The notes: generated by a model from the letters alone, not told the origin. A stretch of DNA of 61,532 nt from an uncultured Pseudomonadota bacterium (GCA_902793005.1 CADBBQ010000005.1:1-61532); one strand, 5' to 3'. Counted from the first letter of the stretch, positions 10,725 through 56,947 are shown. Made by a program: numbers and translations.

Positions 10725-10757
10725 AAATCCCTGCAAAAATTTGCAGGGATTTTTTTA
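10725..10757 (+). terminator. Rho-independent terminator after rplQ
   Basis: AAATCCCTGCAA-AAAT-TTGCAGGGATTT followed by a T-run. Confidence 0.8.
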
Positions 10758-10821
10758 TAAATCGTTTTGTAAATGCGGTATTTTATGATAAAATATAAAA
10801 GATAGTTGTAGGAGATATTTT

Positions 10822-13650
10822 ATGAAAAAAATATTTGCGTTTGGTTTAATTGGTGCGGTGTTGTATGGTGTGGCGGCTGATGCGGCGGCAACGCGTTCCA
10901 CGGCGCGGACACGGGCGCCGGCCGGACAAACAACAACAACGCAATCGGCAAATGCGCAAAGCGCGTCTGGGAATACGATGTCGGGGACGGCACGGCGTGC
11001 GCCACGTGCAGCGGTTGCACAACCAAAGCAGAATACGTCTGTACAAACCGCGGCGGCGCCGGCCCAACGTGTAAATGCGCGTGCGGCAACTACGCAAAAG
11101 GCAATAAATGTCGGAACAAAAATTACGGGTGCAACAACAAATACTGTCGTTAGTGAGGAGTGCAAAGAAAAATATTATGGGTGTATGGATTCTTTCTGTA
11201 TGTTGGATAATGCAAGCGGAGGCCGTTGTTTGTGCAGTGATCGCCATACGGAATTGGATAAAGTTTTGGACGAGATTCAAAAATTGGATGAACAAAGTTA
11301 TGCTATGGCGACGTCTGGTGTTGAACGCATAAATATGGGTGCGGATGCCGATGCAGTGCAAAGTATGGTTGATAAAATTACGGGTGATATTCAAAACCCA
11401 AATAAAAAAGATACTCGTGCGCGGACATTAAATTTGGATGCCTGGAATAATATTTATGAAACAGATGAAATGGATGTGTTTGGATCGGCGACAACGGATA
11501 TTACCAATCAAACGGGTGATGCGTTGCACGCGTCTGTATCTGATATGTGTATAAAACAGATTCCAGAATGTTCGGCAAATTTGTCTATGCTGAAATTGAT
11601 GTATGCACAGCAGATTAAATCTGATTGTACGGCATATGAAAACAGTTTGAAAAAACAACGTAATGAAAGTGCAAAAAAATTACAAACGGCCCAGACTGCT
11701 CTGCGCGAGGCTGCGTTGGAACAACATCAAAATGCAAATAAATATGATTTAGGTCAATGCACGATACGTTTTAAACAGTGTATGCAATCAACAGCCGGAT
11801 GTGGTGATGATTTTGCAAACTGTGCATCGGTTGTGGCAACGGAAAATGCCCAGACTCGTGTGGGGACAAAAAATAAAAAATCAAAAACATATGAAATTAA
11901 AACAGGTATGACATCGATTTCTATTGCGGCGTCAACGTACGATATTTTGATATCGAAAAAGCCAATGTGTGATGGTGTTACAAAGCAATGTGTGTCTGTC
12001 CAGGACCAAGTTTGGGATACTTTCCTGCGCGAGGTTGCACCAACGTTGAAATCGGCGGAATTGGTTGCGGAATCAAATATTCGTATGAATTGTATTGCGA
12101 ATATTTCATCGTGTTTCCAACAAGCGTGTAAAGATAATATGGATCCAAATGATCCGGATGGTTCGTATGATATGTGTTTGTCGCGTCCACAAACAATGCG
12201 GTCTTTATGTCGGGTGCAAATCGACCCGTGTGTTGCGGCCGAACCACAAATTTTGGATTTTGTGTATGCGCGACTGGCATCTATGCGTGTTGATGCGTGC
12301 ACGACCGAGGTTAAAGATTGTTTAACAGATGAAAATCGTTGTGGGTCTGATTATTCAAAATGTATCGGTTTGGATTTGCAATCTGTGCGTGATATGTGTC
12401 CGTTGGATAAATTGGTTGCCTGTCAAAAAGATGGCCAGGCGGCTGCGTGGGAAACAATTGATAATATCGTCCAAGGAATTTATCTGGATATTGATAATTC
12501 TTTGTTGACATCGTGTACGAATGCGGTTAATGCGAAAATGATGGAAATTTGTGGCAGTGAAACCGAGTGCTTGGCATTTGATGATGATGAGTATATTGGT
12601 ACCGACAGTTTGACCGGTTATAAAGCGCGTGATGGCAGTTTTGTTATCGAAGGTTTATTGTCGTTTGGTAATGTTAAAATCAAAGAAGCAACAAGTAGTG
12701 CAGATGATGTGAAGTTTAGTAAATATGAATTGGATATTTCTGGATATTCGGACAAGATTAAAAATGTTGATGGAACATCGGCGGTCAAAGATCGTGTGCT
12801 GTCCAGTTTGCAGTCTGTCCAAAACAAGATAAATCAAAAGATTGCTTTGTTGACGTCTGATGCGAAAATCAGTATGTGTGTGAACGGTCGTGATATGCGT
12901 CAGATTCGTGGAACGCGTCAAAATCGTTCAACCCAGGATACGGCACGTTTTCCGCATTTGTTGGATTCACAAATTACGGCAATAATAGATGCTGGTTTGG
13001 ACAAGGCAAATGAAAATTATTCTAAAAAATATGATGAATTGTTTGCCAAGGCTATTGAACAACAAAGCGATGAAAATAAATCTGCGATGTGTGCGGCAAT
13101 GGCGTCGTCGGGTGGAATAAAAATAAATAAATCTGAAAATAATGTAAAATCTCGTGGATTTTTGGGTTTGTTGGAAAAAGCAATGCAAAGCACCCGAAAT
13201 GTGGCGCAGTTATCAAAAGCTGATTTTGCACAAAATGATTTGAGTACTGGCGGTGCCAGTGTTGGGGATTATGATGTGCGCATTGTGTTGGATGGTATGA
13301 CGATGAATAATTTGTTGAATTTGCAATCGTCTGGCAAGGGTGAATTTATCCAAAAGGATGGTTCAGGTAATATGTTGGGTAAAATTACTATGAGTGCGGT
13401 GTATTCTGCGGATACAAATACTTGCACATTGACCACGACAACAACAATGTGTGAAAATATCAAAGATGTTTATAATACGTCCGAGGTTGAATCTTGTGGT
13501 GGTGGTGGATTCTTTACATTTGATGGATGTGGTGGTTTCAGTTTGTTTGGTGGCAGTGGCACCAGTACGACGCCCTCATCTACATTTGCGGGAACGGTGT
13601 GTACCAAAATGGCTCAGCCAGTTATAACAACCCAAGAAATCAAGATGTAA
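10822..13650 (+). CDS. Exported cysteine-rich protein, family member A (942 aa)
   Basis: RBS AGGAGA. Signal peptide MKKIFAFGLIGAVLYGVAADA. T/R/A-rich low-complexity region. Cys knot CKEKYYGCMDSFCMLDNASGGRCLCSD. Modules CGDDFANC and CGSDYSKC. Colinear with the 56948-59410 protein. Confidence 0.85.
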   Translation: MKKIFAFGLIGAVLYGVAADAAATRSTARTRAPAGQTTTTQSANAQSASGNTMSGTARRAPRAAVAQPKQNTSVQTAAAPAQRVNARAATTQKAINVGTKITGATTNTVVSEECKEKYYGCMDSFCMLDNASGGRCLCSDRHTELDKVLDEIQKLDEQSYAMATSGVERINMGADADAVQSMVDKITGDIQNPNKKDTRARTLNLDAWNNIYETDEMDVFGSATTDITNQTGDALHASVSDMCIKQIPECSANLSMLKLMYAQQIKSDCTAYENSLKKQRNESAKKLQTAQTALREAALEQHQNANKYDLGQCTIRFKQCMQSTAGCGDDFANCASVVATENAQTRVGTKNKKSKTYEIKTGMTSISIAASTYDILISKKPMCDGVTKQCVSVQDQVWDTFLREVAPTLKSAELVAESNIRMNCIANISSCFQQACKDNMDPNDPDGSYDMCLSRPQTMRSLCRVQIDPCVAAEPQILDFVYARLASMRVDACTTEVKDCLTDENRCGSDYSKCIGLDLQSVRDMCPLDKLVACQKDGQAAAWETIDNIVQGIYLDIDNSLLTSCTNAVNAKMMEICGSETECLAFDDDEYIGTDSLTGYKARDGSFVIEGLLSFGNVKIKEATSSADDVKFSKYELDISGYSDKIKNVDGTSAVKDRVLSSLQSVQNKINQKIALLTSDAKISMCVNGRDMRQIRGTRQNRSTQDTARFPHLLDSQITAIIDAGLDKANENYSKKYDELFAKAIEQQSDENKSAMCAAMASSGGIKINKSENNVKSRGFLGLLEKAMQSTRNVAQLSKADFAQNDLSTGGASVGDYDVRIVLDGMTMNNLLNLQSSGKGEFIQKDGSGNMLGKITMSAVYSADTNTCTLTTTTTMCENIKDVYNTSEVESCGGGGFFTFDGCGGFSLFGGSGTSTTPSSTFAGTVCTKMAQPVITTQEIKM

Positions 13651-13652
13651 AA

Positions 13653-13677
13653 AAAATCCCCCGTTTGGGGGATTTTT
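13653..13677. terminator. Bidirectional terminator hairpin
   Basis: AAAAATCCCCC-GTTT-GGGGGATTTTT lies between convergent genes. Confidence 0.7.
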
Positions 13678-14632
13678 ACAAATCTTCTAATTTTTTTACA
13701 ACGTGGACGCCGGATTGTTCCCATTCGGCAATTTTTTCATCACACTTCATTATGTTTGTTGCGCCCAAGTATAAGATTGCGCGAATATTGTGTTCGGCGG
13801 CGATGGTGCGTAGTGGGGTGATTGGAGATGGACGCGTTTTGCCAGATGCAAACCATACGGGTTCATCCATAATCCAAAAGTCGTTATCGTTATGTACGGC
13901 GATTGCGGCGGTGTCGGTTATAATAATGTCGTCGTCGGTGATATCAAATTTGCGCCCGTTTTGTGACAAATAATCTATGACCGGATTTGTTTCGTCGTCT
14001 GTGTCTGGTGTGGTATCAAATCCCAAATCGATATCTTGGAACATTGGTGCGGTTGGGACGGGTTGTGTATCGTCAAAATCAAAATCTGGGGGTAATGGCA
14101 TTTCGTCGTGGGATACGGTTGGTGTGGTCGGCGAATTTGTTGGATAAACGTTTGGTGATACACTGCATACACTGCAAATCGGGGTGGCAGTGCGATTAGG
14201 GTGTGTGCGTGCGCGTAAAAACACGGCGCGCATTTCGGCAGGAATATTATCCATCGATGTGTCAATTGGTGCAGTGACCGATTCGTTTTGGGGTTCTGGG
14301 GTTTCATCCGTTTGAGATACTTGCTTTGGAAATAATTTTTCCATTATATGTGAAATAAATTTTGGTACGGGCAGGGCCAATAACGGTTTTCCGGTTCTGA
14401 TGACGATTGTGGTTGTTGCAATGTATAAAGGTATGCACGCAAATATAATTAAGCAAAATGCAAATCCGCCCAGTCCGTGCAGGTGTGCGTTGGCAACACG
14501 ATGCCAATGTGAATACGAGAATATTTCAAAATTAAATAATATGTGCATCAACGCCCAGGTTAGAAATACATAACCACAAGTCCATAAAAATGGAGTTTTG
14601 AGTTTTTTTAAAAAATCTGAGAGTTTTGACAT
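13676..14632 (-). CDS. Membrane protein of unknown function
   Basis: 318 aa. The N-terminal region has 2-3 hydrophobic segments, followed by an acidic/Pro-rich linker and a C-terminal globular part. I recognise no family. Confidence 0.65.
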   Translation of the reverse strand: MSKLSDFLKKLKTPFLWTCGYVFLTWALMHILFNFEIFSYSHWHRVANAHLHGLGGFAFCLIIFACIPLYIATTTIVIRTGKPLLALPVPKFISHIMEKLFPKQVSQTDETPEPQNESVTAPIDTSMDNIPAEMRAVFLRARTHPNRTATPICSVCSVSPNVYPTNSPTTPTVSHDEMPLPPDFDFDDTQPVPTAPMFQDIDLGFDTTPDTDDETNPVIDYLSQNGRKFDITDDDIIITDTAAIAVHNDNDFWIMDEPVWFASGKTRPSPITPLRTIAAEHNIRAILYLGATNIMKCDEKIAEWEQSGVHVVKKLEDL

Positions 14633-14767
14633 ATTTATATTATAGACAAGTTATGATTTTTGTCAATAAAATAATAAATTGTCTATATTTTTTATAATAA
14701 ATGTGTAAAAAAAGTTTTTTTATGGGCTTTTTTATGGTATAATACTTTCAAAAAGGGAGAATGTTTT

Positions 14768-16921
14768 ATGCAAAAAAAGTCTCAATTATTGTGGTCGTGT
14801 GTCGCGGGTTGCGCGGCATTGGTGTTTGTAGGGGCGGCGGGTGCCGCGCCACGTTCGATGGCGACGGGGGCGACGGGGGCGACGAGTGCGCGTATGCCGA
14901 CAATGCCAACGATGTCTATCAATACTATTGGGACACACGCTATATCTGGTGTAGGGACACCGACGGGTGGTGCCGGGACGGTTACGCCGACACCAAATCC
15001 AAATCCAAACCCGAATCCAAATCCGGATCCGGAACCAACACCCGAGGGCTGCGAAGATGGCGGTGTTGCGAATTCTGATTTTACGGTTGATGATTGTATG
15101 CAATCCGTGTTGCAATGTGTGCAAAGTGGCGTTTTGCCAAATGGATTGAACGATTTGTTCAATGAAGATTTGCGCAATTCTATTATTAACGGTATGGGAA
15201 TTTGTGCGTCCCAGATTGATTATTGTATTCGTAATGTACGCGTTGATTGTCGTAATGTTTACGATTCGTCTGTGGATGTGTGGTTGGATTTCAATTCACG
15301 TATTGTTCAACCGGAATATTATAATTTCGTGTTAAGAAAAACTGGATTGACACCGAACCAGGCGGAAAATGTTTGCGAATTGTTGGATAAAAATACTTAT
15401 GGCAAATCTTTTGCGGCGGTCTCGGCATCTGGCAATGTGACAAGTGAATACAACAATAATATTAATGCGTATAATAACAACAGTAATGTTGGTAAAAATC
15501 AACCCCAAGGGCCAATGGTGAATACGACGGCAAATGGAAATGTGTCGGGTGTTGATGGCGAACGTGGGCATTATGCGCGTTGGGATGCAACAAACGGTGT
15601 GTGCAAGGTGCGTGTTGCGGCGTATAACAAAGATAATTTGATTACAAACAAATGGTTGTTTGGTGCGATTGGTGATGACAAAGCGGCCGAGGTTTGGCGT
15701 GATGCGGGTTCGTCATTTACTTGCAACAAGGATTTGTTTGATTTTTCATTGCTGAATGATACGCATACGGCGGCGGTCGTCGGTATGGGCGGCGGAACAT
15801 TGTTGGGTGCCGGTATCGGTGCGTTGACAGGGCATGCAGCCAAGAATTTTGATTGTAATAATGCGGATGCGCGCAAGGAATTGTATAACGCTTTGCAATC
15901 CGAAGGTTTGGTGTCTAAATTGAATCAATATTTGTCGTCAAGTAACAGAGTGCCTGTATCGGGTTCGGAATTTAATGAAAAATCTTGTATTGCGATTAAG
16001 AAATTGGCGAATAAGATGGTTGAGTTGAAAAATGTGATTGACGTTTGTGCACCAACAACGTATGGATGTCAGGTTACTATTGCAGGTCAGGCTATAAAAT
16101 TGGATGTGTGTTCTGCTAAAGATACATTGAGTGTTTCTGGTAATACAGTGACAATTAAGAAGGGTGATGTATCCCAACCTTTTTCAGGTGTGGAAAATGC
16201 AGAAGCGGTGAATGATGTATATAAGGCTTGCACATTGAAGTGTGATCCAAACGCGAAATGTTCTTTCCATAGTTTGAAGGAAATTGATAATTTTGATAGT
16301 ATGGTTTGTGAAGGTGGGCAAGCATGTATGAGTATGTCGGCCTCTCAAGAGGAAGTTAGTGATTTGGAACGTGTGTTTGGCAATGACAAGGTAAACAAAG
16401 TGTTCCAAGGCACCAAGTCCACGGTTGGTAGAAATGCGGCGATTGGTGCGGGAATCGGTTTGGGAACCGGTGGTGTCGCGACGGCAATAACCGCATTTGT
16501 TGAACGCAATAATATTTCTTGTCACGTTGGTGACGGGTTGGATACGGTTGGGTTCGGCAAATCATATACAATTGATTCTTTGAAAAATTTCTATGTGAAA
16601 TGGAATTTGCGTGTGGCGGATTCTATATCACCGACGGCGCGCGTCACGTCTTGCGAGGATTGGATTGCGACGTGTGGTATGTACACAACACCCGAAGATT
16701 GCAATGCGGTAGAGATAAACTATCAAAGACCGGGACGCAATACAACGACATTGGTACGCAGTGCGTGTCGTATGTCGGGCAGTGTGTGTATCGAAAATCG
16801 TTCGGTTGCGATATCGTATGGTGCGTGCCCGCGTAATGGAATCCCGCCGGTTGTTCCGCCGGTTGGACCGATTACACCGGTTAATGGTGGAACGGATGCG
16901 CCGGCCGTGATACAGCACTAG
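14768..16921 (+). CDS. Exported cysteine-rich protein B with PN-repeat linker and two glycine-zipper segments (717 aa)
   Basis: RBS GGGAGA 7 nt upstream. Signal peptide ..CVAGCAALVFVGAAGA. (PN)5PDPEP linker. GMGGGTLLGAGIGALTG and AAIGAGIGLGTGGVA. About 40 Cys residues, but it lacks the CG-x-D-[FYW] module. Confidence 0.8.
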   Translation: MQKKSQLLWSCVAGCAALVFVGAAGAAPRSMATGATGATSARMPTMPTMSINTIGTHAISGVGTPTGGAGTVTPTPNPNPNPNPNPDPEPTPEGCEDGGVANSDFTVDDCMQSVLQCVQSGVLPNGLNDLFNEDLRNSIINGMGICASQIDYCIRNVRVDCRNVYDSSVDVWLDFNSRIVQPEYYNFVLRKTGLTPNQAENVCELLDKNTYGKSFAAVSASGNVTSEYNNNINAYNNNSNVGKNQPQGPMVNTTANGNVSGVDGERGHYARWDATNGVCKVRVAAYNKDNLITNKWLFGAIGDDKAAEVWRDAGSSFTCNKDLFDFSLLNDTHTAAVVGMGGGTLLGAGIGALTGHAAKNFDCNNADARKELYNALQSEGLVSKLNQYLSSSNRVPVSGSEFNEKSCIAIKKLANKMVELKNVIDVCAPTTYGCQVTIAGQAIKLDVCSAKDTLSVSGNTVTIKKGDVSQPFSGVENAEAVNDVYKACTLKCDPNAKCSFHSLKEIDNFDSMVCEGGQACMSMSASQEEVSDLERVFGNDKVNKVFQGTKSTVGRNAAIGAGIGLGTGGVATAITAFVERNNISCHVGDGLDTVGFGKSYTIDSLKNFYVKWNLRVADSISPTARVTSCEDWIATCGMYTTPEDCNAVEINYQRPGRNTTTLVRSACRMSGSVCIENRSVAISYGACPRNGIPPVVPPVGPITPVNGGTDAPAVIQH
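14993..15036 (+). repeat. Imperfect (CCAAAT)n hexanucleotide repeat encoding PNPNPNPNPNPDPEP
   Basis: ccaaatccaaatccaaacccgaatccaaatccggatccggaacc, read directly from the sequence. Confidence 0.9.
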
Positions 16922-16953
16922 TCAATTCGAAATCTTGGGGATTTTGAGTATAT

Positions 16954-16992
16954 GCAAATGCCGATATGTTATCGGCATTTGCTATTTTTTTG
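16954..16992 (+). terminator. Rho-independent terminator
   Basis: GCAAATGCCGAT-ATGTT-ATCGGCATTTGC followed by a T-run. Confidence 0.8.
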
Positions 16993-17062
16993 TTGTATTG
17001 TGTAATGAAAAACAAATTGACATAAAACATATTTTGTCTATAATGATAAAAAAGGACGAAAT

Positions 17063-17923
17063 ATGCAATATGATATAAATTTGAATGATGCGCGGATTGG
17101 GTATAAACCGGATGGTGATTTCAGTCGTGTATTATTTGTTGAAAAATCGCGCAAATTAAATCCGCGTGGGGCGGCGTTTTCGTCTTATTCGCCGGCATAT
17201 ATTTCGTCAAACGAGCAATTGCAATCAATAATGCAGATTTTGAAACCGGCGGGTAAAAATGTGTTGGCCGTTGCGGGCAGTGGTGATGCACCATTGTTTT
17301 TTAGTGCATATGGCGCGCAACATATTGATACATTTGATATATCATATAATGCGCGTGTGGTTATGGATATAAAAACATATATGTTGAAAAATAAATTTAA
17401 ATTTTATGATTATGTGCATATTTTGCGTGATGTGCAAACCGCATCTGATTTATTAGATTGTGCGTCGGGTGACGTTGTTATGCGTGCAGTGACAGATGGT
17501 ACTTTGGATTATTTGCGTGGAATGCGTGGGTGCAAAATTTTTATGCATACATCAAACGGTGAAATTGCTTGCTTTCCAAATGCGACGGAATTTGCCGCGA
17601 TGCAGCAAAATGTGTCGGGACGGTATAATTTTATATGGTCTGATTTATTTGATTTGTCGGGGCATATTTTAAATAAAAAATATGATATTATTTATCTGTC
17701 CAATGTGTTGCAGTATGTTAATGCGGCATCGGATGTTACGGCGGTGTTAAATAATATGCGTGCGCATTTGAACGCGGATGGGGTGATTGTGGTGGATTCT
17801 TTGTTGCAATCGTTGGCATCTGCGCGTCACAAAAAATACAAGACGGTTGGTGATAATGTTTCCAGTTGGGCGGATTTGATTTATGATAAAGCCGCTATGA
17901 CAATGTTTTTGAAAACGCGATAG
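17063..17923 (+). CDS. SAM-dependent methyltransferase-fold protein (possibly DUF3419/BtaA-like)
   Basis: 286 aa. Promoter TTGACA-16-TATAAT upstream. Gly-rich motif VLAVAGSGDAP, then YDIIYLSNVLQYV and LNADGVIVVDS, which resemble class I methyltransferase motifs. The family assignment is tentative. Confidence 0.5.
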   Translation: MQYDINLNDARIGYKPDGDFSRVLFVEKSRKLNPRGAAFSSYSPAYISSNEQLQSIMQILKPAGKNVLAVAGSGDAPLFFSAYGAQHIDTFDISYNARVVMDIKTYMLKNKFKFYDYVHILRDVQTASDLLDCASGDVVMRAVTDGTLDYLRGMRGCKIFMHTSNGEIACFPNATEFAAMQQNVSGRYNFIWSDLFDLSGHILNKKYDIIYLSNVLQYVNAASDVTAVLNNMRAHLNADGVIVVDSLLQSLASARHKKYKTVGDNVSSWADLIYDKAAMTMFLKTR

Positions 17924-17926
17924 TTA

Positions 17927-17983
17927 TTTTCAAAGTTCAGAGTTCAAAGTTCAAAGTTCAAAGTTGCAGTTGTGGTAAAATGT
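17927..17983. repeat. (CAAAGTT)n heptamer element
   Basis: ttttCAAAGTTCAGAGTTCAAAGTTCAAAGTTCAAAGTTGCAGTTGTGGtaaaa lies between two convergent stop codons. Related copies are at 61449-61492 and, shorter, at 10665-10690. Confidence 0.85.
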
Positions 17984-17985
17984 TT

Positions 17986-19722
17986 TTACATATTTTCGCT
18001 GCCCAACAATAATTGTTGACCTTGGTTAAATAATTCGTCGCGTGCATCTATCCCCAAATTGGCGGCGGCGTCGGCCACGGGTTTAGGGACGCCTTCGCTT
18101 TGTGCGGCGGCTGATACCAGTGCCCGTTGTGCGCCGCTTGTTGATTTGTTTATTGAATTTCCAATGGATGCGACTTTTTTAGCGGCATTTTTTATGTTTG
18201 TTCCAAAAGTATTGACGCAGGTGTAATTTTTGTTTGCCTTTTTGCCGTCTGGACAGGTACAGGTGTTATCGTCGTTCCAAGTTCCATCGGAGCCAACACA
18301 TTTATCTTGAAACTCGGTAATTTTCATTTCGTCGTTTGTGCATTTCCCTTGTTTTACACTTTGTAATTTAGAACATTCGCATTTGCCCAATATGGTTAAT
18401 GTTCCGCCTTGTTTATCGCATTGTTCTTTACGTTTTAAATCGACGCAAACGCCGTTTTGTTCTTTTTTATTACCGGTGCAATTGCATTTACCATTGTTTG
18501 GTGTGCCACCAGACGCACTGCATAATTCGTCGGCGGTTTTGTCGATACAGACGCCGTTGTTGGATTTTTTATCGTCATCGCAAATGCATTGGTTGTTTTT
18601 CCAATCACCGTCCGAATTTTCGCATTTTTCTTCCGCGGTCAACTCGCGACATTTGCCATCGTCGCCCAGGATTTTTCCTTCTTGTGTACAGGCACTTTCT
18701 AATGCATCTTTGGCGTTTTTGGTGTCAATTGCGCGACCAATTGCGCCCGATGTTAATGCGCCAACCGCGGTGCCAACACCCGAACCCAACATCGCAGACG
18801 ATGCGGCGGTTTGTGCACGTGTCAATCTGTATGCGTTTTCTTTGAATGTTGTGATGTCAATTCCAAACCAATCGGGTGTGCAATCAAAAACAGAGCCCGC
18901 ATAAAGTTTTTTTGATGCCATTTGTTTGTTGTCTGCAAAAAAGTTTACGGTAAATACGCAATCCAATGAACGTTCGTCAAACAACGCGCCCAATGATTCA
19001 CAAGACTTACGCATATCGTTGCGTAATTCGCGTAATCTTTTTTCATCCACCGCGATTTGTTTTTCGGCGGCTGTGCGGACAATGCCAAATACGCGTCCCG
19101 CGCGTCCCGTCAGTGCAGAATCAGCCTCGCGACATTGGTCGGCAATTGTTTTACATTTTGCAATTGCGCGGTCGCCGGCGGATTTAGATAAACATTTATC
19201 AAATGTTTTGCCGCATTCGCCAATTATGCAATCGTTATATTGATTACCGCAACTTATTACCTTGTTGTATGATGATAATGTGATTTCTTGTTTTTTGTCG
19301 GCCTTGATTTGATTTGCGAATAACGAAAATTCGTGTGCAGTGCAGGTCGTGTTTTTGCGACACGCGGTTAATTTATCTGAAAAAGTTGTGTCGGTGTCGG
19401 TGGCACATTTTGTGTATCCGGTGCCGCACCTGGATTCAATGCATTTGCGTAAATCACTGTCGCATTTGTTTGAAGTTGCGCCGGTGCGCGTTTGTTGTGT
19501 TGCAATTGTTTTGTTGTCTCGTGCGTCAATCGCGGCGCGTTGTGCACGAATTTGTTCAGCAATCGCGGAATCTGATTCATTTGAATTTGATGTTGTGTTT
19601 GATGACAAGCGTGCGCTGAAATTAGAACTTTTGTTTGTAATTGTTGCACAAATGGCATTTTGCGCGAAAAATATTCCGCAAATAAATACTGATAAAAATT
19701 TCCAATTTGTATTATATGCCAT
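17986..19722 (-). CDS. Exported cysteine-rich protein, family member C (578 aa)
   Basis: Signal peptide ..FLSVFICGIFFAQNAICA. Modules CDSDLRKCIESRCGTGYTKC and CGNQYNDCIIGECGKTFDKC. Glycine zipper GSGVGTAVGALTSGAIG. Four tandem roughly 33-aa Cys modules. Confidence 0.8.
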   Translation of the reverse strand: MAYNTNWKFLSVFICGIFFAQNAICATITNKSSNFSARLSSNTTSNSNESDSAIAEQIRAQRAAIDARDNKTIATQQTRTGATSNKCDSDLRKCIESRCGTGYTKCATDTDTTFSDKLTACRKNTTCTAHEFSLFANQIKADKKQEITLSSYNKVISCGNQYNDCIIGECGKTFDKCLSKSAGDRAIAKCKTIADQCREADSALTGRAGRVFGIVRTAAEKQIAVDEKRLRELRNDMRKSCESLGALFDERSLDCVFTVNFFADNKQMASKKLYAGSVFDCTPDWFGIDITTFKENAYRLTRAQTAASSAMLGSGVGTAVGALTSGAIGRAIDTKNAKDALESACTQEGKILGDDGKCRELTAEEKCENSDGDWKNNQCICDDDKKSNNGVCIDKTADELCSASGGTPNNGKCNCTGNKKEQNGVCVDLKRKEQCDKQGGTLTILGKCECSKLQSVKQGKCTNDEMKITEFQDKCVGSDGTWNDDNTCTCPDGKKANKNYTCVNTFGTNIKNAAKKVASIGNSINKSTSGAQRALVSAAAQSEGVPKPVADAAANLGIDARDELFNQGQQLLLGSENM

Positions 19723-19740
19723 TTTGTTGTCTTTGTTTTT

Positions 19741-20661
19741 TTACAGGTTTAATTCTTTGCGGGCCTCGTCCATTAAATCGTCCAATTCTTTTTGTATTTC
19801 TTGTTCCGACAGATTTTTTATGTGTGTGCACGCGGTTTTATGAAATTCGCATAAATTTGTTGCGATTGTTTTGTCGGATGCACAATTGTCGGTGGTATTG
19901 TTTTTGCAAACCGTTTCAACGCATTTGTTAAAATCAGTGTCATTTTTGCATCCGGCGTTTATGCTTTTGACCGTGTCCAGGCGACGACGGACGTGTGATG
20001 CAATAATGTTATTCAGGTTTGATGCAGTGGCATTAATTAAATTTTTGCGTGTGTCATCAATTGTCTTGCGTGCGTTGGTTATAAAGTTTGTACAACCGGT
20101 TGCATCGGTGGCACACGTTGCAAAAAATCCGTCAAATGTGGTGTTGTCTGTGCATTTTGAATAATCTGTGCCACACTTATTGTCGGCGGTAATACAAACG
20201 GTAATTTCGTTCGTGCATTGTGTGGCATTTTTGTTGTTTGTTGCGGATTTTTTCTGTAATGATGCCATATCCATTGCCAGGCCCGCCGCCGTACAAGATT
20301 TTTCAATCAGTGGGTCGTAAGCCTCGTTCACGTCGTCGGTTGTGCAATTAGCGACAATTGACAAGCATTTTTCGGTTGCCCACGCATACCGTTCGCCTGG
20401 GTCGGTGGGTGCGGATTTTAAATCACGCGCCGAAATCGTATTTTTTGATGATGCGGTATTCACAGAACGCAGGTTTGTTGGGGCCGTCCCTGCATCCGCC
20501 GTGCCACAATATTGACACCGGGCGGATGGATTACTGGATATGTTAATCGCACACGCGGAATCCAGACACCGTGTCAAATTTATGCGTGAACACGTCGCCG
20601 CCGGTGCAATTCCGGGCAGGCCAATAAAACAACATACAAAAATCACGGATTTTTTTATCAT
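19741..20661 (-). CDS. Exported cysteine-rich protein, family member D (306 aa)
   Basis: Start ATG 20661 (MIKKSVIFVCCFIGLPGIAPA) directly after GAGAGAG. CSRINLTRCLDSACAIN..CQYCG and CTNEITVCITADNKCGTDYSKC. The track ORF extends to 20739. Confidence 0.78.
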   Translation of the reverse strand: MIKKSVIFVCCFIGLPGIAPAATCSRINLTRCLDSACAINISSNPSARCQYCGTADAGTAPTNLRSVNTASSKNTISARDLKSAPTDPGERYAWATEKCLSIVANCTTDDVNEAYDPLIEKSCTAAGLAMDMASLQKKSATNNKNATQCTNEITVCITADNKCGTDYSKCTDNTTFDGFFATCATDATGCTNFITNARKTIDDTRKNLINATASNLNNIIASHVRRRLDTVKSINAGCKNDTDFNKCVETVCKNNTTDNCASDKTIATNLCEFHKTACTHIKNLSEQEIQKELDDLMDEARKELNL

Positions 20662-21865: not shown

Positions 21866-21995
21866 AAAAAATTGTTTTGTATTGTTATGAAATCGTCATA
21901 CATTTTTTGTTATGGCGATTTTTTATTTCTGTTTTTTTCTGGACTTGTTTTTTTATTATGTGCTAACCTGTATCACAGATATATCGAGAGAGAGA

Positions 21996-24900
21996 TTGAT
22001 TAAATTTAATCGTGTTTTATTTTTATTAATGGTGGGTGCACCGTCTGTGGCGGGGGCGGCGGGTACCGATTTTAATATGGCGGCGCAGTTGTTATCTGCG
22101 GCGCGTAATGGAAATACTCGTTTGATGCAAAATTTAATCAATAGTGGTGCTGATGTGAACTATGTCGATTCGACGGGGGTATCGGTTGTATGTACCGCGG
22201 TTATGAATAATGATATGCGCGCGGTCCAGTTGTTACAAATGTATGGCGCCGATGCGTCGCAATGCGACAGACAGATAAAAAATTATCGTGTGCGTAATAC
22301 ATCGGTTGATGAAACAGGCCTGTTTTCGGGATTGTCGCCAACACATAAATTGGTTTTGGGTTCTGTGGGGGCGATTGGTGCAATTGCGGGAATTTTATGG
22401 GCAACCGATGCATTTGATAGTGATGGTGGTGGCGATTCGTTTACTTCGACCGGCAATCACGGCAGTGGCAGTGGCGGCAGTGGTAATGGTGGAACATCTG
22501 GCTTAACACCAATGTTGACTGTGCCATATAGTCCCGCGTATCTGGCAAATGGTGTTGTGAATCCTGATGCAAGTGTTAGTGCAAATGATTGGGTCGAAAC
22601 CCAGGGGCAAAGGGATTTTAGTTTTATGCAAGCGTCGTCAGAGATGCAGAATTATTTGTTGATTTCGCGTGGGTATAATTTGTTTGCTAATCGGTATAAT
22701 GGACAATTGATATTTCGTGATGCAGCAACTCATGCACCGTTGGCAATGACAGGTGTCGCAGCCGAGGTTGGTGGTGGAACGCCGGCGACGGTTGCATTGA
22801 TTACAACAAATGGTATTGATAATTCGGATGGGTCGTTGGCGCGTGCTGGTGGGATTGCGGTGGCATTGAGTACCAGTGGTGCGGTTACATATTATGATAA
22901 ATACAAAAATTATCAAAATTCTGGCTGTGATGGTACGAGTTGTTCTGGTACGGAAATTACCTCGTTTGATTTGTCGGGACATAATACAGCGGTGGAAAAT
23001 ACTGCGGCGACAGCACGTGATAATAATATTGCAAAAATTGTCGCAGGATGGTTGGCAGGTGGACGTGCAGATGGTGATTATTATGGGTTTATTCCATATG
23101 GTACTTTGGCGGTGTACAGAACAGGTGGTGCCGGTACCAGTTATTTAAATTATCAGGCAATGAAAAATGCAATTAGTAATAGTTCTTTTACGCCGGATGT
23201 TATTGCAAACGCAAGTCAGAATTTGAATTCATTGACAATGGCAACGTATGACACATTGGAAACAATGGATGATATTGCATCGACTGGTCAGTTGGAGGCT
23301 TTTCAGCATAAAATTTCTAATTGGTATGGTACTGGTCAAGGATTGGTTGCGGATGATTTGTTTGCTTCGTATAACATCGCATCTCCGATAATTGTAAATT
23401 CGGTTGGTGGATATAATACCGCAAATTATGCATCTGGGACGGGGGTTGATGCGACGTTTGAAAATTATGCGCCGATTGTATATTCGGATAAAATAGATAA
23501 AAATTTTATGTCTGTGGTTGCCGTGCAACATAGTGGCACAACAGGAACTTCTGGTGCAACAAGTGTGTCGGGTTATGGTGATGGAACCGCTTTTGGTAAA
23601 ATTAGATTATCAATGTGGACTGATGAAAATAATTCTTCTATTGTATATCGTTCGCGTATGTGCGGGATTTCTGGTACTGGAAATTCTTCTACTGATCCTT
23701 GGTGTTTTGCTGCACCTGGTGAAAATTCTGAATATGCCGTTTCGGCAATGGCAGGGGCGGTGGCGTCTTTGAAAAAATCTTTTGATTATATGTCTAATCA
23801 AGAGATATTTAATTTGTTGGCTTTGACGGCAGATGGACCGTTTTTAGCCAAAGATTCAAACGGTGATTGGTTTACAAAAGATAATTTGGTTCAGTACTTG
23901 AAAACTAAGTATACGATATCAAATCAATCTGATGCGTTGAACGGCGATTTATATTTGAATGCATTTTTGGCGAATTTTGGTTATGGATTGATTAATCTTG
24001 AACGAGCAACGACACCTGGACAGCAAATTTATTATTTTTCAGATGGTAATATAGTGTCATCAAATAAAGTGTTTTGGGATAGTTTGCGTACGTCCAGTTT
24101 GCGGGGCAGTGGTGTGTTCGGTGCGCGTGGTGCAACAATTCCGGTGGCGGCGTATGATGTGTTATCGTCCTCGGACGGCGCAATGTCGGTTATGCGTCAA
24201 TGGAATACAGATGTCGCATTGGGTGGGGACGCGTCACACGGGTTGTACCTGGGTGATACTTTGGCGGAATTAAAAACGCGAGATGTGGATAATTCTGTGA
24301 CGGTTGGTAATTTCAAATTTGGTTTTGCACGCAGTGAACGCGCTTATGATGATAATATGTCGGGGCTGGATAGTTTATCGATTGCGTGGAATAATGACCG
24401 ATTCGGTTTTAAATCGGGATATCAACATTATTTGACCGATGGGGCGGGGCGGTTTTCGGGTTTGTCCAATCCGGTGTTGGCGTTGACATCGAATGCGGTA
24501 TCCAATGCGGTGGAATTGAAATCCGGTCGGGTGTCTGTGTCGGGACGCGCGTTTGTTGGTAATATAACAACGGCTGGTTTGTTGGAAAATGACCCGGTGG
24601 TGTCGAATAATTTTGCGGCGGCAAAATTGGGTGATGCGATGGGTGCGGAATCAGGATTGTCTGTCCGTGGTGAAAAATTGTCGATTGCCACAAATGTTGG
24701 AACAAAGAAAGAAAAAAAAACTGTATTGGGAACAGCGGGCTATGGATTTTTGGATTTAGGTGGCGCGGATACAAGATATATCGATTCGACGGTAAAGTAT
24801 GCGTTTAATGATTGGGCAAAATTGACTTTGCGTGGAACATATGCGTGGACGCAGGCGCGTGATGTGGCGGATGGTGTGATAAATGGATTGTCCGAATTAA

Positions 24901-25235
24901 AATCGAACGCGTTTGCAGTGGGTGTGAATTTGGGTAATTTTGATTTGACGGTCAGTATGCCTTTGGCATTGGTTTCGGGCGCGATGCGTTATTCTGTTGC
25001 AGATGTTGCGTTGGATGATAACGGTGCGTTGGTTGTAAATAGTTTAGGGGAACGTAGTATTGATTTGACGCCTGATGTGCGCGAATATCGTTTGAACGCA
25101 TCGTATCGTCATCAATTTGGTGAATGGACGGATGGTGCGCTGGGATTCATATATCGCGTCAATCCAAACAATACAGATGCATTTGGAAACGAATCAATAT
25201 TTATGATGAAACTATCACATCGGTTGGGAATATAA
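21996..25235 (+). CDS. Exported ankyrin-repeat / degenerate subtilase (S8)-like / C-terminal beta-barrel (autotransporter-like) protein
   Basis: The ORF is open from 21912. The proposed start is TTG 21996 in the context GAGAGAGAT-TTG, the same context as the family genes, giving signal peptide (M)IKFNRVLFLLMVGAPSVAGA. Two ANK repeats (NGNTRLMQNLINSGADVN..). Glycine zipper GSVGAIGAIAG and a Gly-rich linker. S8-like blocks VALITTNGID, IIVNSVGG and FAAPGE..AVSAMAGAVASL. The last roughly 300 aa look like beta-strands. The start is uncertain. Confidence 0.6.
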   Translation: MIKFNRVLFLLMVGAPSVAGAAGTDFNMAAQLLSAARNGNTRLMQNLINSGADVNYVDSTGVSVVCTAVMNNDMRAVQLLQMYGADASQCDRQIKNYRVRNTSVDETGLFSGLSPTHKLVLGSVGAIGAIAGILWATDAFDSDGGGDSFTSTGNHGSGSGGSGNGGTSGLTPMLTVPYSPAYLANGVVNPDASVSANDWVETQGQRDFSFMQASSEMQNYLLISRGYNLFANRYNGQLIFRDAATHAPLAMTGVAAEVGGGTPATVALITTNGIDNSDGSLARAGGIAVALSTSGAVTYYDKYKNYQNSGCDGTSCSGTEITSFDLSGHNTAVENTAATARDNNIAKIVAGWLAGGRADGDYYGFIPYGTLAVYRTGGAGTSYLNYQAMKNAISNSSFTPDVIANASQNLNSLTMATYDTLETMDDIASTGQLEAFQHKISNWYGTGQGLVADDLFASYNIASPIIVNSVGGYNTANYASGTGVDATFENYAPIVYSDKIDKNFMSVVAVQHSGTTGTSGATSVSGYGDGTAFGKIRLSMWTDENNSSIVYRSRMCGISGTGNSSTDPWCFAAPGENSEYAVSAMAGAVASLKKSFDYMSNQEIFNLLALTADGPFLAKDSNGDWFTKDNLVQYLKTKYTISNQSDALNGDLYLNAFLANFGYGLINLERATTPGQQIYYFSDGNIVSSNKVFWDSLRTSSLRGSGVFGARGATIPVAAYDVLSSSDGAMSVMRQWNTDVALGGDASHGLYLGDTLAELKTRDVDNSVTVGNFKFGFARSERAYDDNMSGLDSLSIAWNNDRFGFKSGYQHYLTDGAGRFSGLSNPVLALTSNAVSNAVELKSGRVSVSGRAFVGNITTAGLLENDPVVSNNFAAAKLGDAMGAESGLSVRGEKLSIATNVGTKKEKKTVLGTAGYGFLDLGGADTRYIDSTVKYAFNDWAKLTLRGTYAWTQARDVADGVINGLSELKSNAFAVGVNLGNFDLTVSMPLALVSGAMRYSVADVALDDNGALVVNSLGERSIDLTPDVREYRLNASYRHQFGEWTDGALGFIYRVNPNNTDAFGNESIFMMKLSHRLGI

Positions 25236-26644: not shown

Positions 26645-26913
26645 TGGATTCTTGTCGTGGTCGACGTTCCTTATGTACCATTTGTACACCGCGGAACATC
26701 GACCACTTCCAATAATCTCATAAAATTTAATTTCTTGGCGAGGGCTTTGGATTCTTGTCGCAAAAGTCAAACCTTATGTAGCATTTGTACACTGCGGTTT
26801 GCCTTTTGCTTCCAATAATCTCATAAAATTTAATTTCTTGGCCGAGGACCTGGATTCTTGTCGCGATTGGCGTTCCTTATGTAGGTCAACTACACTGCGG
26901 TTTGTCTTGTGAA
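26645..26913 (+). repeat. Tandem array (about 2.6 units, roughly 103-nt period) of the structured intergenic repeat
   Basis: Units start near 26645, 26748 and 26850. The flanks GGATTCTTGTCG and CTTCCAATAATCTCATAAAATTTAATTTCTTGG and the loop TTATGTA(C/G)CATTTGTACAC(C/T)GC are conserved. The stem arms differ between units but remain complementary. The last unit is degenerate. Confidence 0.88.
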
Positions 26914-36333: not shown

Positions 36334-36390
36334 TATTTTAATTTTTATAATTTTTGTGATATAATAATGGCCGTAAAGAGAGAATTTTTT

Positions 36391-51828: not shown

Positions 51829-51855
51829 AAAACCGTCTTATTCGACGGTTTTTTA
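51829..51855. terminator. Bidirectional terminator hairpin
   Basis: AAAACCGTC-TTATTC-GACGGTTTTTT lies between convergent genes. Confidence 0.8.
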
Positions 51856-54610: not shown

Positions 54611-54744
54611 AAATTAAATCCTTTATTGTTGTTGCGTCTATGATATATCGGGGATGGAAAAATATCAAGATTTTTTTACTTGGGCTTGATATAGGGTGTT
54701 TTTTTTGATAAAATAAACACGATAGTATTATAGTGGAGAGAGAT

Positions 54745-56925: not shown

Positions 56926-56947
56926 ATTTTCATAGATGGAGAGAGAT

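What the first reader, a model, noticed from the sequence alone, without database searches (positions are those of the whole stretch)
10822..20661. Locus 1 of an expanded family of large exported cysteine-rich proteins (C-x6-C-x4/6-C-G-x-[DN]-[FYW]-x2-C modules)
Downstream of rplQ nearly every gene encodes an exported or membrane protein. Three of them carry signal peptides and repeated roughly 22-aa Cys modules: 10822-13650 (942 aa), 17986-19722 (578 aa) and 19741-20661 (306 aa). The modules are CTIRFKQCMQSTAGCGDDFANC and CTTEVKDCLTDENRCGSDYSKC in the 942-aa protein, CDSDLRKCIESRCGTGYTKC and CGNQYNDCIIGECGKTFDKC in the 578-aa protein, and CTNEITVCITADNKCGTDYSKC in the 306-aa protein. The same module recurs in three proteins at 51.8-59.4 kb. 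I cannot place this signature in any named domain family from memory. The six signature-bearing genes total 12.6 kb, about 20% of the window. Adding two other Cys-rich exported proteins (14768-16921 and 30113-31939) brings this to about 27%. That density is extraordinary for a region otherwise made of core genes. A 2-3 TM protein (13676-14632) and a SAM-methyltransferase-fold protein (17063-17923) are embedded in the locus. One possible function is a disulfide-cross-linked surface or periplasmic lattice; another is a variable host-interaction repertoire. Both are speculation.
Basis: partly seen in the sequence, partly recalled or inferred. Interest (0 to 1): 0.85.

Follow-up and report, generated by a model that had tools for sequence, protein, structure and literature searches.

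The report
Orphan disulfide-rich exported envelope proteins
A group of uncultured gut bacteria with very small genomes keeps a conserved set of large, secreted, cysteine-stapled helical proteins that match no known family; these proteins probably build part of the cell envelope or a contact structure, but nobody has studied them.

Summary
All ORFs and all quoted Cys modules are at the stated coordinates, although 17986-19722 and 19741-20661 lie on the minus strand. The strict motif occurs 8 times against 0.00015 expected by shuffling.

A942, F824, E730 and D807 are true paralogs, 20-39% identical over 400-700 aa. B578 and C306 are homologous to each other and share only the roughly 22-aa module with the large proteins. 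G717 and H608 are unrelated in sequence.

Nothing matches Pfam, NCBIfam, PHROGs, PDB sequences or PDB folds. Every named homolog is a 'hypothetical protein' from uncultured Alphaproteobacteria MAGs (Rs-D84/Ca. Enterousia type, genomes of about 0.75-1 Mb). The family has 993 clusters at 50% identity.

The locus is not a variable repertoire. It is a syntenic core cluster (rplQ-A942-TM318-G717-MT-[protease]-B578-C306-Ank protein) kept in most of 79 species. dN/dS is 0.14-0.31.

Cysteines are 84-95% conserved in A942, G717 and C306, against 39-47% for other residues. They are lost or gained in pairs, which is the signature of disulfides.

AlphaFold gives elongated all-helical rods.

Best reading: a lineage-specific, disulfide-stapled extracytoplasmic scaffold or complex. 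The function is inferred, not shown.

The parts
10822..13650 (+). A942: exported 942-aa Cys-rich helical protein and prototype of the large paralog family. Layout: signal peptide about aa 1-22; basic acid-free disordered tail aa 23-110; N-module aa 114-138 (nt 11161-11235); twin-Cx6C modules aa 313-334 (nt 11758-11823) and aa 493-514 (nt 12298-12363); C-terminal beta-rich domain about aa 820-942 ending in IKM.
   Evidence: ORF. Paralogy. More than 1,123 homologs. Cys conservation 0.95 against 0.42 for other residues. AF2 model. The two internal modules match each other at hhalign probability 95%. Tail composition. C-terminal motif.
10725..10794 (+). Terminator-like hairpin after rplQ (10725-10752), followed by a promoter-like site (10767-10794) upstream of A942. 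A942 is probably its own transcription unit.
   Evidence: These are consensus matches only.
13676..14632 (-). TM318: orphan protein with two N-terminal TM helices, a Pro/Asp-rich linker and a conserved C-terminal domain (H247, D249, D256, W260 invariant). It is convergent with A942 and is syntenic with A942 in most of the 79 loci.
   Evidence: No Pfam or PDB match. Its Cys are not conserved (0.12), which makes it the internal control.
14768..16921 (+). G717: exported 717-aa protein with 26 Cys in the mature chain, unrelated in sequence to the family. Features: invariant RMPTMP motif (nt 14891-14914), PNPNP linker (14993-15037), and two Gly-zipper-like segments (15770-15841 and 16427-16498).
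17063..17923 (+). MT286: cytoplasmic class-I SAM-dependent methyltransferase. It recurs next to A942 or G717 in most related genomes. A perfect -35/-10 consensus lies at 17017-17044.
   Evidence: Pfam Methyltransf_12/23 above threshold. Synteny. Promoter.
17986..19722 (-). B578: exported protein. Features: N-terminal Cys-helical domain with two modules (nt 19405-19464 and 19192-19251) and 15 conserved Cys; Gly-zipper-like segment (18727-18807); four tandem C-x12-C-x-C-x10-C repeats (18217-18624) whose number varies among orthologs.
   Evidence: Homology to C306 at hhalign probability 93%, E 4e-7.
19741..20661 (-). C306: exported 306-aa all-helical protein with 20 invariant Cys. N-module at nt 20506-20592 and twin-Cx6C module at nt 20152-20217. 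It lies immediately upstream of B578.
   Evidence: AF2 pLDDT 78, with a 65-residue helix. No fold match in PDB.
21912..25235 (+). AT1107: large exported protein with ankyrin repeats (aa 53-120), a Gly-zipper-like segment near aa 147, and an orphan C-terminal region that looks beta-rich by eye. It is a conserved end member of the cluster. The true start codon is probably downstream of 21912.
36367..38361 (+). S664: exported trypsin-fold (glutamyl-endopeptidase-like) protease with a C-terminal Gly-zipper-like segment. In many related genomes it sits between G717 and B578; in this window it has been relocated.
51853..54276 (-). D807: the most divergent large paralog. N-module at nt 53821-53895 and degenerate module at 53173-53238.
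54733..56925 (+). E730: large paralog. N-module at 55012-55086, modules at 55561-55626 and 55966-56031, C-terminal Gly-zipper segment at 56713-56835.
56936..59410 (+). F824: closest paralog of A942 (39% identity over 700 aa). N-module at 57107-57181, modules at 57713-57778 and 58238-58303.

Best explanation
The locus encodes a lineage-specific set of Sec-exported, elongated, almost all-alpha-helical proteins. Their helices and loops are pinned by many intramolecular disulfide pairs.

Four large paralogs (A942, F824, E730, D807) and the smaller C306/B578 pair reuse a short helix-loop unit, C-x6-C-x4/6-C-x6-C. Most begin with a low-complexity N-terminal tail. That tail is strongly basic and acid-free in A942 and F824, and net basic in D807.

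These proteins are core, vertically inherited genes of reduced-genome gut Alphaproteobacteria of the Rs-D84/Ca. Enterousia type. They belong to a conserved cluster of about 9 genes. The other members are a 2-TM orphan protein, a cytoplasmic SAM methyltransferase, another Cys-rich exported protein (G717), a trypsin-fold protease and an ankyrin-bearing large exported protein. Several of these carry glycine-zipper-like, weakly hydrophobic segments that could anchor or co-assemble them in a membrane.

Most likely they form a stable extracytoplasmic scaffold or complex in the periplasm or outer envelope of these bacteria.

Shown: export signals, paralogy, synteny, purifying selection, Cys conservation and pairwise Cys co-variation, helical models, and absence from all curated libraries.

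Inferred: that the pairs are disulfides in vivo, where the proteins sit, that they assemble together, and the structural role.
For: - Real genes and real family: blastp A942/F824 E 6e-164, A942/E730 1e-57, A942/D807 6e-24. There are at least 17 invariant Cys across the four paralogs.
- Module is a true recurrent unit: 8 observed against 0.00015 expected. Module 1 against module 2 of A942 gives hhalign probability 95%, E 2e-8. A480-600 against B578 gives 90% over 82 columns. B578 against C306 gives 93% over 175 columns.
- Conserved core cluster: the order rpoA-rplQ-[MT]-A942-TM318-G717-[MT]-[S664]-B578-C306-...-AT1107 recurs in most of 79 species-level loci at 43-85% identity. It also recurs in two further metagenome contigs, one from JGI and one from Logan.
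- Purifying selection: dN/dS is 0.14-0.31 for all cluster genes.
- Cys under special constraint: mean conservation of Cys against other residues is 0.95/0.42 (A942 group), 0.84/0.47 (G717) and 0.87/0.39 (C306). B578's 15 N-terminal Cys are at 0.97-1.00. The non-exported control TM318 gives 0.12/0.41.
- Disulfide signature: Cys disappear or appear in twos. Examples are A942 C500+C526 (twice) and C892+C903; G717 C434+C448, C488+C492, C427+C498, C514+C520 and C629+C687; C306 C252+C260; B578 C381+C392. Even counts occur in 74/89 A-type and 54/60 G717 sequences.
- Export: all have N-terminal hydrophobic segments. AxA motifs are conserved in the B578, C306 and G717 orthologs inspected. A942, C306, D807 and F824 have no further segment above the hydropathy cut-off apart from one marginal peak in D807.
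- Shape: the AF2 model of C306 has pLDDT 78, is all helix and includes a 65-residue helix. The AF2 model of A942 has pLDDT 62, with helices of 58, 48 and 35 residues plus a C-terminal beta domain.
- Organism context: Rs-D84/Enterousia genomes are about 0.75-1.0 Mb, fermentative and non-flagellated, and are thought to depend on a partner. They encode many unexplained membrane proteins (PMC12306168). Keeping about 22 kb of these genes in such a genome argues for an important function.
Against: - No experimental datum exists for any member.
- There is no homology or fold match to anchor a function.
- AF2 global confidence is low (pTM 0.40-0.43). I could not read coordinates, so Cys-Cys proximity in the models is unverified.
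- The hosts are strict fermenters without respiratory chains. No Dsb/VKOR-type gene is in the window or in the few flanking unknown ORFs scanned with Pfam. The oxidation route is therefore unexplained.
- Subcellular location (periplasm, outer membrane or cell surface) is not determined.
- The Gly-zipper segments score below Pfam thresholds.
- The proteins evolve about 3-5 times faster than rplQ in amino-acid terms. This fits envelope proteins but also fits interaction surfaces.
Confidence: 0.5

Rival explanations
1. Partner- or host-contact apparatus. The same proteins are displayed on or released from the cell. They mediate attachment to another cell (bacterium, protist or gut epithelium), or form pores in it, so that this metabolically dependent bacterium can acquire lipids, nucleotides and amino acids. 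Glycine-zipper segments would insert into the target or own membrane. Ankyrin repeats and the protease would act on the partner.
For: - Rs-D84 bacteria lack lipid, nucleotide and amino-acid synthesis and standard transporters, and are proposed to live off a partner.
- An ankyrin-repeat exported protein and a trypsin-fold protease are conserved in the cluster.
- Gly-zipper-like segments occur in five cluster proteins. Gly-zippers are known channel-forming elements, for example in VacA (own knowledge).
- B578's distal Cys repeats vary from 0 to 9 copies among orthologs, as expected for an exposed part.
- Amino-acid divergence is higher than in rpoA and rplQ.
Against: - No adhesin, pilus, secretion-system or toxin domain was detected.
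- No dedicated secretion machinery was seen in the flanks examined.
- Gene-wide dN/dS is well below 1.
- Core regions and all Cys are strongly conserved.
Confidence: 0.3
2. Metal-binding or redox proteins. The 4-Cys modules coordinate Zn or Fe-S clusters rather than forming disulfides, for example for metal storage or extracytoplasmic electron transfer in an anoxic habitat.
For: - Modules contain four Cys.
- The habitat is anoxic, and no Dsb-type oxidase was seen in the window.
Against: - Cys are lost in pairs, not in fours. One pair (A942 C500-C526) links a module Cys to a Cys outside the module.
- Leaders are Sec-type with no twin-arginine motif, so export of pre-folded cofactor proteins is unlikely.
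- There are no CxxC/CxxCH-type motifs and no Pfam metal-domain hits.
Confidence: 0.07
3. Variable surface-antigen or phase-variable repertoire. The paralogs would be interchangeable variants used to evade host immunity or phages.
For: - Several paralogs lie in one window.
- Lineage-specific tandem duplications of the A942 type occur in some genomes, for example three copies in L014 and two in L042, L046, L063 and L075-L077.
- B578 has a variable repeat number.
Against: - Orthologs are one-to-one and syntenic in most of 79 species.
- The paralogs are ancient, at 20-39% identity.
- dN/dS is 0.14-0.31.
- No invertible or repeat-mediated switching elements were seen around the genes.
Confidence: 0.05

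Closest known systems
Chlamydial cysteine-rich outer-membrane complex proteins (OmcA/OmcB with MOMP and Pmp autotransporters); comparison from own knowledge
   Same: - Obligately host-dependent Gram-negative bacterium with a reduced genome.
- Several large Sec-exported proteins with many conserved Cys.
- Proposed role as a disulfide-stabilised envelope.
- Co-occurrence with a large exported protein that may sit in the outer membrane.
   Different: - No sequence or fold similarity.
- OmcB is beta-rich, while these proteins are predicted all-helical.
- Rs-D84 bacteria are reported to keep peptidoglycan and rod-shape genes.
- Intermolecular cross-linking is not shown here.
Helicobacter cysteine-rich proteins (Hcp family, Sel1-like repeats); comparison from own knowledge
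   Same: Secreted or periplasmic alpha-helical repeat proteins of a host-associated bacterium, in which helix pairs are stapled by conserved disulfides. They also form a paralogous family.
   Different: - No Sel1/SLR Pfam hit in any member.
- The repeat length and Cys spacing differ.
- The proteins here are much larger (300-1000 aa) and are not built from regular 36-aa repeats.
CHCH / twin-Cx9C helical hairpins of the mitochondrial intermembrane space; comparison from own knowledge
   Same: A short helix-loop(-helix) unit carrying two pairs of Cys at fixed heptad-like spacing, thought to be pinned by two disulfides.
   Different: - The spacing is Cx6C rather than Cx9C or Cx3C.
- There is no Pfam CHCH hit.
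- At least one module Cys (A942 C500) appears to pair outside the module.
- The context is bacterial and exported.
Glycine-zipper outer-membrane lipoproteins (SlyB/Pcp, rickettsial 17-kDa antigen; Pfam Gly-zipper_Omp and Gly-zipper_YMGG)
   Same: B578, E730, G717, S664 and AT1107 contain GxxxGxxxG-rich, weakly hydrophobic segments like those that embed these lipoproteins in a membrane.
   Different: - Scores are far below the Pfam cut-offs, at about 13 bits against 25-29.
- There is no conserved lipobox.
- The segments are embedded in large multidomain proteins.

Membership tests
Any curated protein family (Pfam-A, NCBIfam, PHROGs) | Score above the family's curated threshold | tested here: not met
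   No hit above threshold for A942, B578, C306, D807, E730, F824, G717, H608 or TM318. Scanning 37 A-type and 40 C306-type homologs individually gave no recurrent significant family.
Any solved structure (PDB) | Sequence-profile or fold similarity to a solved chain | tested here: not met
   Profile hmmsearch best E 0.48. Foldseek best E 0.28 for A942 and 5.2 for C306. The models have low pTM, so the fold test is weak for A942. It is fairer for C306 residues 145-300, where pLDDT is mostly above 85.
Chlamydial OmcB/OmcA cysteine-rich envelope proteins | Sequence homology to OmcB/OmcA families | tested here: not met
   No Pfam hit to chlamydial OMP families.
Chlamydial OmcB/OmcA cysteine-rich envelope proteins | Intermolecular disulfide cross-linking into a detergent-insoluble envelope complex | not testable with these tools
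   This needs non-reducing gels or sarkosyl fractionation. The only hint is the odd number (15) of conserved Cys in B578.
Sel1-like-repeat Helicobacter cysteine-rich proteins | Tandem 36-aa SLR repeats detectable with the Sel1 model | tested here: not met
   No Sel1 hit at E<=1 in any member.
CHCH twin-CxnC hairpin | Two Cx9C (or Cx3C) motifs on antiparallel helices that pair with each other | tested here: not met
   The spacing is Cx6C...Cx6C. In the C306 model the second half of the module is a loop, not a helix. A942 C500 co-varies with C526, which lies outside the module.
Disulfide-bonded exported proteins (general class) | Sec signal peptide | tested here: met
   All have N-terminal hydrophobic segments. 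AxA motifs are conserved in the B578, C306 and G717 orthologs inspected. This is heuristic, because no SignalP was available.
Disulfide-bonded exported proteins (general class) | Cys far more conserved than other residues, even Cys counts, and loss or gain of Cys in pairs | tested here: met
   The control protein TM318 shows no such bias. B578 is the exception to the even-count rule: 29 of 33 orthologs have an odd count.
Disulfide-bonded exported proteins (general class) | Presence of an oxidising system (DsbA/DsbB or VKOR) in the genome | not tested
   Only 61.5 kb of the genome was available, and none was seen in it.
Variable surface-antigen multigene family | Non-syntenic, rapidly turning-over copies with diversifying selection | tested here: not met
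   Synteny holds in most of 79 species. dN/dS is 0.14-0.31.
Glycine-zipper OM lipoproteins | Pfam Gly-zipper model above threshold plus a lipobox | tested here: not met
   Scores are about 13 bits against cut-offs of 25-29. No conserved lipobox Cys is present.

The most novel reading that the evidence does not exclude
The cluster encodes a previously undescribed envelope or contact machine of partner-dependent gut Alphaproteobacteria. It would be a set of disulfide-stapled helical rods, Gly-zipper membrane inserts, a protease and an ankyrin protein. Together they would form either a proteinaceous exoskeleton or a cell-to-cell feeding structure, assembled in an anoxic habitat by an unknown oxidation route.
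Probability: 0.3. Interest if true: 0.8.

Novelty: new variant of a known kind. Interest (0 to 1): 0.6.

Why it matters
Rs-D84/Enterousia-type bacteria are widespread in rumen, livestock, human, mouse, bird and termite guts. They have never been cultured, and their roughly 0.9-Mb genomes do not explain how they obtain lipids, nucleotides or amino acids.

This cluster takes up about 22 kb here, roughly a third of the window and about 2-3% of a typical genome of this group. It is the kind of large, conserved, wholly unannotated investment that could hold the answer to how these cells hold together or attach to a partner.

It also defines at least three new protein families for database curation:
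- the A942 type,
- the C306/B578 type,
- G717.

TM318 is a further orphan family.

Finally, it poses a concrete biochemical puzzle: dozens of conserved cysteine pairs in exported proteins of a respiration-less anaerobe.

Tried and rejected
- Curated libraries: Pfam, NCBIfam and PHROGs scans of all cluster proteins gave nothing above threshold. Scans of 37+40+20 homologs one by one also gave nothing. Weak recurrent hits (EGF_Pikachurin at E 0.32, DUF7795, HEPN_RES_NTD1) were rejected as compositional or coiled-coil noise.
- Solved structures: the PDB profile search gave only E~0.5 noise. Foldseek of both AF2 models against PDB gave no match with E<0.28. Partial alignments to levivirus coat proteins and SMC/colicin coiled coils were rejected (TM<0.36, probability <0.6).
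- TM318 C-terminal domain: tested for a PDB or Pfam relative, with none found.
- MT286: phmmer gave an 'ankyrin' E 1e-6 with zero passing stretches, which I treated as an artefact.
- Co-transcription with the ribosomal alpha operon: rejected, because a 12-bp-stem terminator and a promoter-like site separate rplQ from A942.
- Lipoprotein anchoring of G717 (VAGC) and B578: rejected, because those Cys are not conserved in orthologs.
- G717 and H608 as family members: rejected by blastp and, for G717, by hhalign.
- Mobile-element or phage origin: no PHROG hits, and GC content is uniform across the window.
- Literature: searches for Rs-D84 plus cysteine-rich found nothing.
- Not done: I did not spend the third large homolog search, because it would not have changed the verdict.

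Full report

- A942: 10822-13650 (+)
- TM318: 13676-14632 (-)
- G717: 14768-16921 (+)
- MT286: 17063-17923 (+)
- B578: 17986-19722 (-)
- C306: 19741-20661 (-)
- H608: 30113-31939 (+)
- D807: 51853-54276 (-)
- E730: 54733-56925 (+)
- F824: 56936-59410 (+)

They form a tandem pair, with C306 upstream.

Every quoted Cys module is present verbatim. The strict pattern occurs 8 times in the six proteins. It occurs 0.00015 times per set in 20,000 shuffles that keep each protein's composition.

D807 carries only a degenerate copy with the second Cys missing. E730 has an additional loose copy.

A second module, C-x6-C-x4-C-x9-C-x-C, opens the structured part of A942, D807, E730 and F824. C306 has a variant of it.

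The size arithmetic (20.4% and 26.9% of the window) is correct.

**2. How the proteins relate to each other**

- A942, F824, E730 and D807 are full-length paralogs. A942/F824 are 39% identical over 700 aa (E 6e-164). A942/E730 are 26% identical, A942/D807 23% and E730/F824 29%. They share at least 17 invariant Cys.
- B578 and C306 match the large proteins only through the module in blastp.
- Profile-profile comparison of ortholog alignments shows that B578 aa 46-225 and C306 aa 107-306 are homologous (probability 93%, E 4e-7).
- A942 aa 491-580 matches B578 aa 85-173 (73-90%).
- The two modules of A942 match each other (95%, E 2e-8).
- G717 is unrelated apart from a glycine-zipper stretch shared with B578. 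H608 showed no similarity in blastp.

**3. Who carries the family**

A942 has more than 1,123 homologs at E<=1e-3 in the 90% clustered collection. An exhaustive profile search of 1.84 billion representatives finds 993 clusters at E<=1e-3 and 812 at E<=1e-10.

Every name attached to a homolog is 'hypothetical protein' from MAGs labelled Alphaproteobacteria or Proteobacteria.

In GTDB species genomes, 535 loci were confirmed. The titles of the 79 loci kept name Candidatus Enterousia, uncultured Alphaproteobacteria, 'Rickettsiales bacterium' and the like. The samples come from cattle, sheep, goat, yak, buffalo, deer, horse, chicken, mouse and human guts, among other sources.

This is the order Rs-D84. 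A recent paper describes it as follows (PMC12306168):
- genomes of about 0.75-1.0 Mb;
- fermentative, without respiration or flagella;
- without lipid, nucleotide or amino-acid synthesis;
- probably dependent on a partner;

**4. Gene context**

I called ORFs in the 79 loci and labelled them by blastp with the window's proteins. This shows one conserved cluster:

rpoA - rplQ - [MT286-like] - A942 - TM318 (convergent) - G717 - [MT286-like] - [S664-like protease] - B578 <- C306 - small ORFs - AT1107.

Further context:
- The cluster is also seen in a very close relative and in two further metagenome contigs, one from JGI and one from Logan. There all members lack Pfam hits except the ankyrin protein.
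- In some genomes D807/E730-type genes lie next to the same cluster (L056, L071, L023, L044). The window's two loci are therefore one functional neighbourhood that has been split here.
- S664, the protease, has been moved to 36.4 kb in this genome.
- Some lineages have tandem duplicates of the A942 type.
- Amino-acid identity is 43-85% where rpoA is 82-98%.
- dN/dS against two close relatives is 0.14-0.31 for every cluster gene, compared with 0.02-0.03 for rpoA.

This is a vertically inherited core cluster under purifying selection. It is not a shuffling repertoire.

A terminator-like hairpin (10725-10752) and a promoter-like site (10767-10794) separate rplQ from A942. Perfect -35/-10 consensus sites precede TM318 and MT286.

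**5. The cysteines**

| Protein | Sequences aligned | Cys conservation | Non-Cys conservation |
|---|---|---|---|
| A942 type | 89 | 0.95 | 0.42 |
| G717 | 60 | 0.84 | 0.47 |
| C306 | 32 | 0.87 | 0.39 |
| TM318 (not exported, control) | 64 | 0.12 | 0.41 |

In addition, the 15 N-terminal Cys of B578 are at 0.97-1.00, and C306 keeps 20 invariant Cys in 40 database homologs.

Where Cys do vary, they vary in twos:
- A942: C500 with C526 (two independent sequences), and C892 with C903.
- G717: C434/C448, C488/C492, C427/C498, C514/C520 and C629/C687.
- C306: C252/C260.
- B578: C381/C392.

Counts are even in 74/89 A942-type and 54/60 G717 sequences.

Paired loss is what disulfides predict and what 4-Cys metal sites do not. 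It also shows that at least one module Cys (A942 C500) bonds outside the module.

B578 keeps an odd number (15) of conserved Cys, which would allow one intermolecular bond.

The unexplained point is the oxidant. The hosts lack respiratory chains. No Dsb/VKOR-type gene is in the window or in the few flanking unknown ORFs I scanned. A genome-wide check was not possible.

**6. Shape and topology**

*Models.*
- The AlphaFold2 model of C306, built with 40 homologs, has mean pLDDT 78. It is almost entirely helical, with one 65-residue helix. pLDDT is mostly above 85 from residue 145 to 280.
- The AlphaFold2 model of A942, built with 37 sequences, has pLDDT 62 and pTM 0.40. It has helices of 58, 48 and 35 residues, two small beta regions and a C-terminal beta-rich domain.
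- In both models the first Cx6C lies on a helix and the third Cys lies in the following loop.
- Neither model matches any PDB fold.

*Export signals.* All eight Cys-rich proteins have N-terminal hydrophobic leaders. AxA motifs are conserved in the B578, C306 and G717 orthologs inspected.

*Other hydrophobic segments.*
- A942, C306 and F824 have no other segment above the hydropathy cut-off.
- D807 has only a marginal one.
- B578, E730, G717 (two), S664 and AT1107 carry Gly/Ala-rich GxxxG-type segments of borderline hydrophobicity. These give sub-threshold Gly-zipper hits.

*N-terminal tails.* The mature N-termini of A942 and F824 are basic, acid-free, low-complexity tails. A942 aa 23-110 has 11 K+R and 0 D+E. 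D807's tail is net basic.

*Other sequence features.*
- A942 orthologs end in a conserved ...IKM.
- G717 orthologs all carry RMP[ST]MP after the leader.
- B578's part beyond its Gly-zipper varies from 0 to 9 four-Cys repeats.

**7. What it most likely is**

*Best reading (confidence 0.5).* This is a lineage-specific extracytoplasmic scaffold or complex. It is made of disulfide-stapled helical rods: the A942 family, C306 and B578. These work together with G717, a protease, an ankyrin protein and a 2-TM protein. The assembly would be partly anchored by Gly-zipper segments.

*Main rival (0.3).* The same parts form a contact or feeding device directed at a partner cell. This fits the organism's dependence, the ankyrin repeats, the protease and the variable distal repeats.

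*Minor rivals.* Metal binding (0.07) is disfavoured by the paired Cys loss and by the Sec-type leaders. A variable-antigen repertoire (0.05) is contradicted by the synteny and the dN/dS values.

Which steps are shown and which are inferred is set out under the best explanation.

**8. Comparison with known systems**

The nearest analogues, from my own knowledge, are:
- the chlamydial cysteine-rich outer-membrane complex;
- the Helicobacter Sel1-like cysteine-rich proteins;
- CHCH twin-CxnC hairpins;
- Gly-zipper lipoproteins.

Each defining sequence feature that could be tested was not met (see the membership table). The resemblance is one of principle only: exported proteins stabilised by conserved disulfides in a host-dependent bacterium.

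**9. Verdict**

The finding is real, statistically solid and uncharacterised. It is better described as a conserved orphan envelope gene cluster of Rs-D84 bacteria than as an 'expanded repertoire'.

I rate it a new variant of a known kind, namely disulfide-rich exported structural proteins. There is a fair chance that it is something more unusual. Interest: 0.6.

Noticed in passing
window 30113-31939 (+): H608 is an exported protein with 20 Cys in the mature chain. By eye it has a mostly beta-type sequence and a short coiled-coil-like stretch. It is unrelated to the family by blastp and was not seen in the loci examined. No Pfam, NCBIfam or PHROG hit.
   Followed up: partly
window 21912-25235 (+): AT1107 has ankyrin repeats at aa 53-120 and a Gly-zipper-like segment near aa 147, followed by about 950 orphan residues that look beta-rich at the C-terminus by eye. 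Orthologs start with a plain signal peptide (MKFIRLF...), so the ATG at 21912 is probably too far upstream.
   Followed up: partly
window 36367-38361 (+): S664 is an exported trypsin-fold protease whose nearest PDB relative is a glutamyl endopeptidase. It has a C-terminal Gly-zipper-like segment. In many related genomes it lies between G717 and B578, so it belongs functionally to the cluster although it is displaced here.
   Followed up: partly
window 13636-13650; A942 orthologs: A942 orthologs share a conserved C-terminal end, ...T-x-x-I-K-M, preceded by a Thr-rich TCTxTTTTTMC strand. F824 ends in DIQM. This could be a sorting or assembly signal.
   Followed up: no
window 14891-14914 (G717 aa 42-49): The motif RMP[ST]MP lies shortly after the signal peptide. 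It is invariant in 60/60 G717 orthologs and is also present in 6/33 B578 orthologs.
   Followed up: partly
window 18217-18624 (B578 aa 367-502): B578 has four tandem repeats of about 34 aa with the pattern C-x12-C-x-C-x10-C, distal to the Gly-zipper segment. The copy number ranges from 0 to 9 among orthologs, and ortholog length ranges from 375 to 877 aa.
   Followed up: partly
L056 12700-13398, L071 12975-13673, L023 15494-16216, L044 14756-15469: A further conserved exported protein of about 235 aa with 9-11 Cys (…ATPWWLQPTVCRLNPTNCY…) sits beside the D807 ortholog in other genomes. It has no Pfam hit, and no copy lies next to D807 in the window.
   Followed up: partly
window 26645-26908: A 103-bp tandem repeat (2.0-2.3 copies, 76-82% matches) lies in the intergenic region between rpmB and the DUF4301 gene.
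   Followed up: no
window 17929-17965 and 61449-61479: There are two heptamer arrays: TTCAAAG x5 between MT286 and B578, and TCAAAGT x4.4 near the window end.
   Followed up: no
window 17017-17044 (+) and 14666-14639 (-): Perfect TTGACA-16-TATAAT promoters lie in front of MT286 and TM318.
   Followed up: no
window 39709-40908 (-), 43604-44701 (-), 34545-35270 (-), 34157-34531 (-): Four other genes stand out: a gene of the choloylglycine (bile-salt) hydrolase family, a CcrM-like adenine methyltransferase (named from its sequence by eye; no tool was run on it), a zeta-toxin-family kinase-like gene, and a carrier-protein (PP-binding) gene next to it.
   Followed up: no
L073 (CAVGNU010000007.1): This contig is titled 'Bacteroides fragilis' but carries the typical Rs-D84 rpoA-rplQ-MT-A942 locus. 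The bin is probably mislabelled or contaminated.
   Followed up: no
window 1-61532: GC skew is positive in almost every 2-kb bin, and cumulative skew rises almost monotonically. The whole window therefore appears to lie on one replichore.
   Followed up: no
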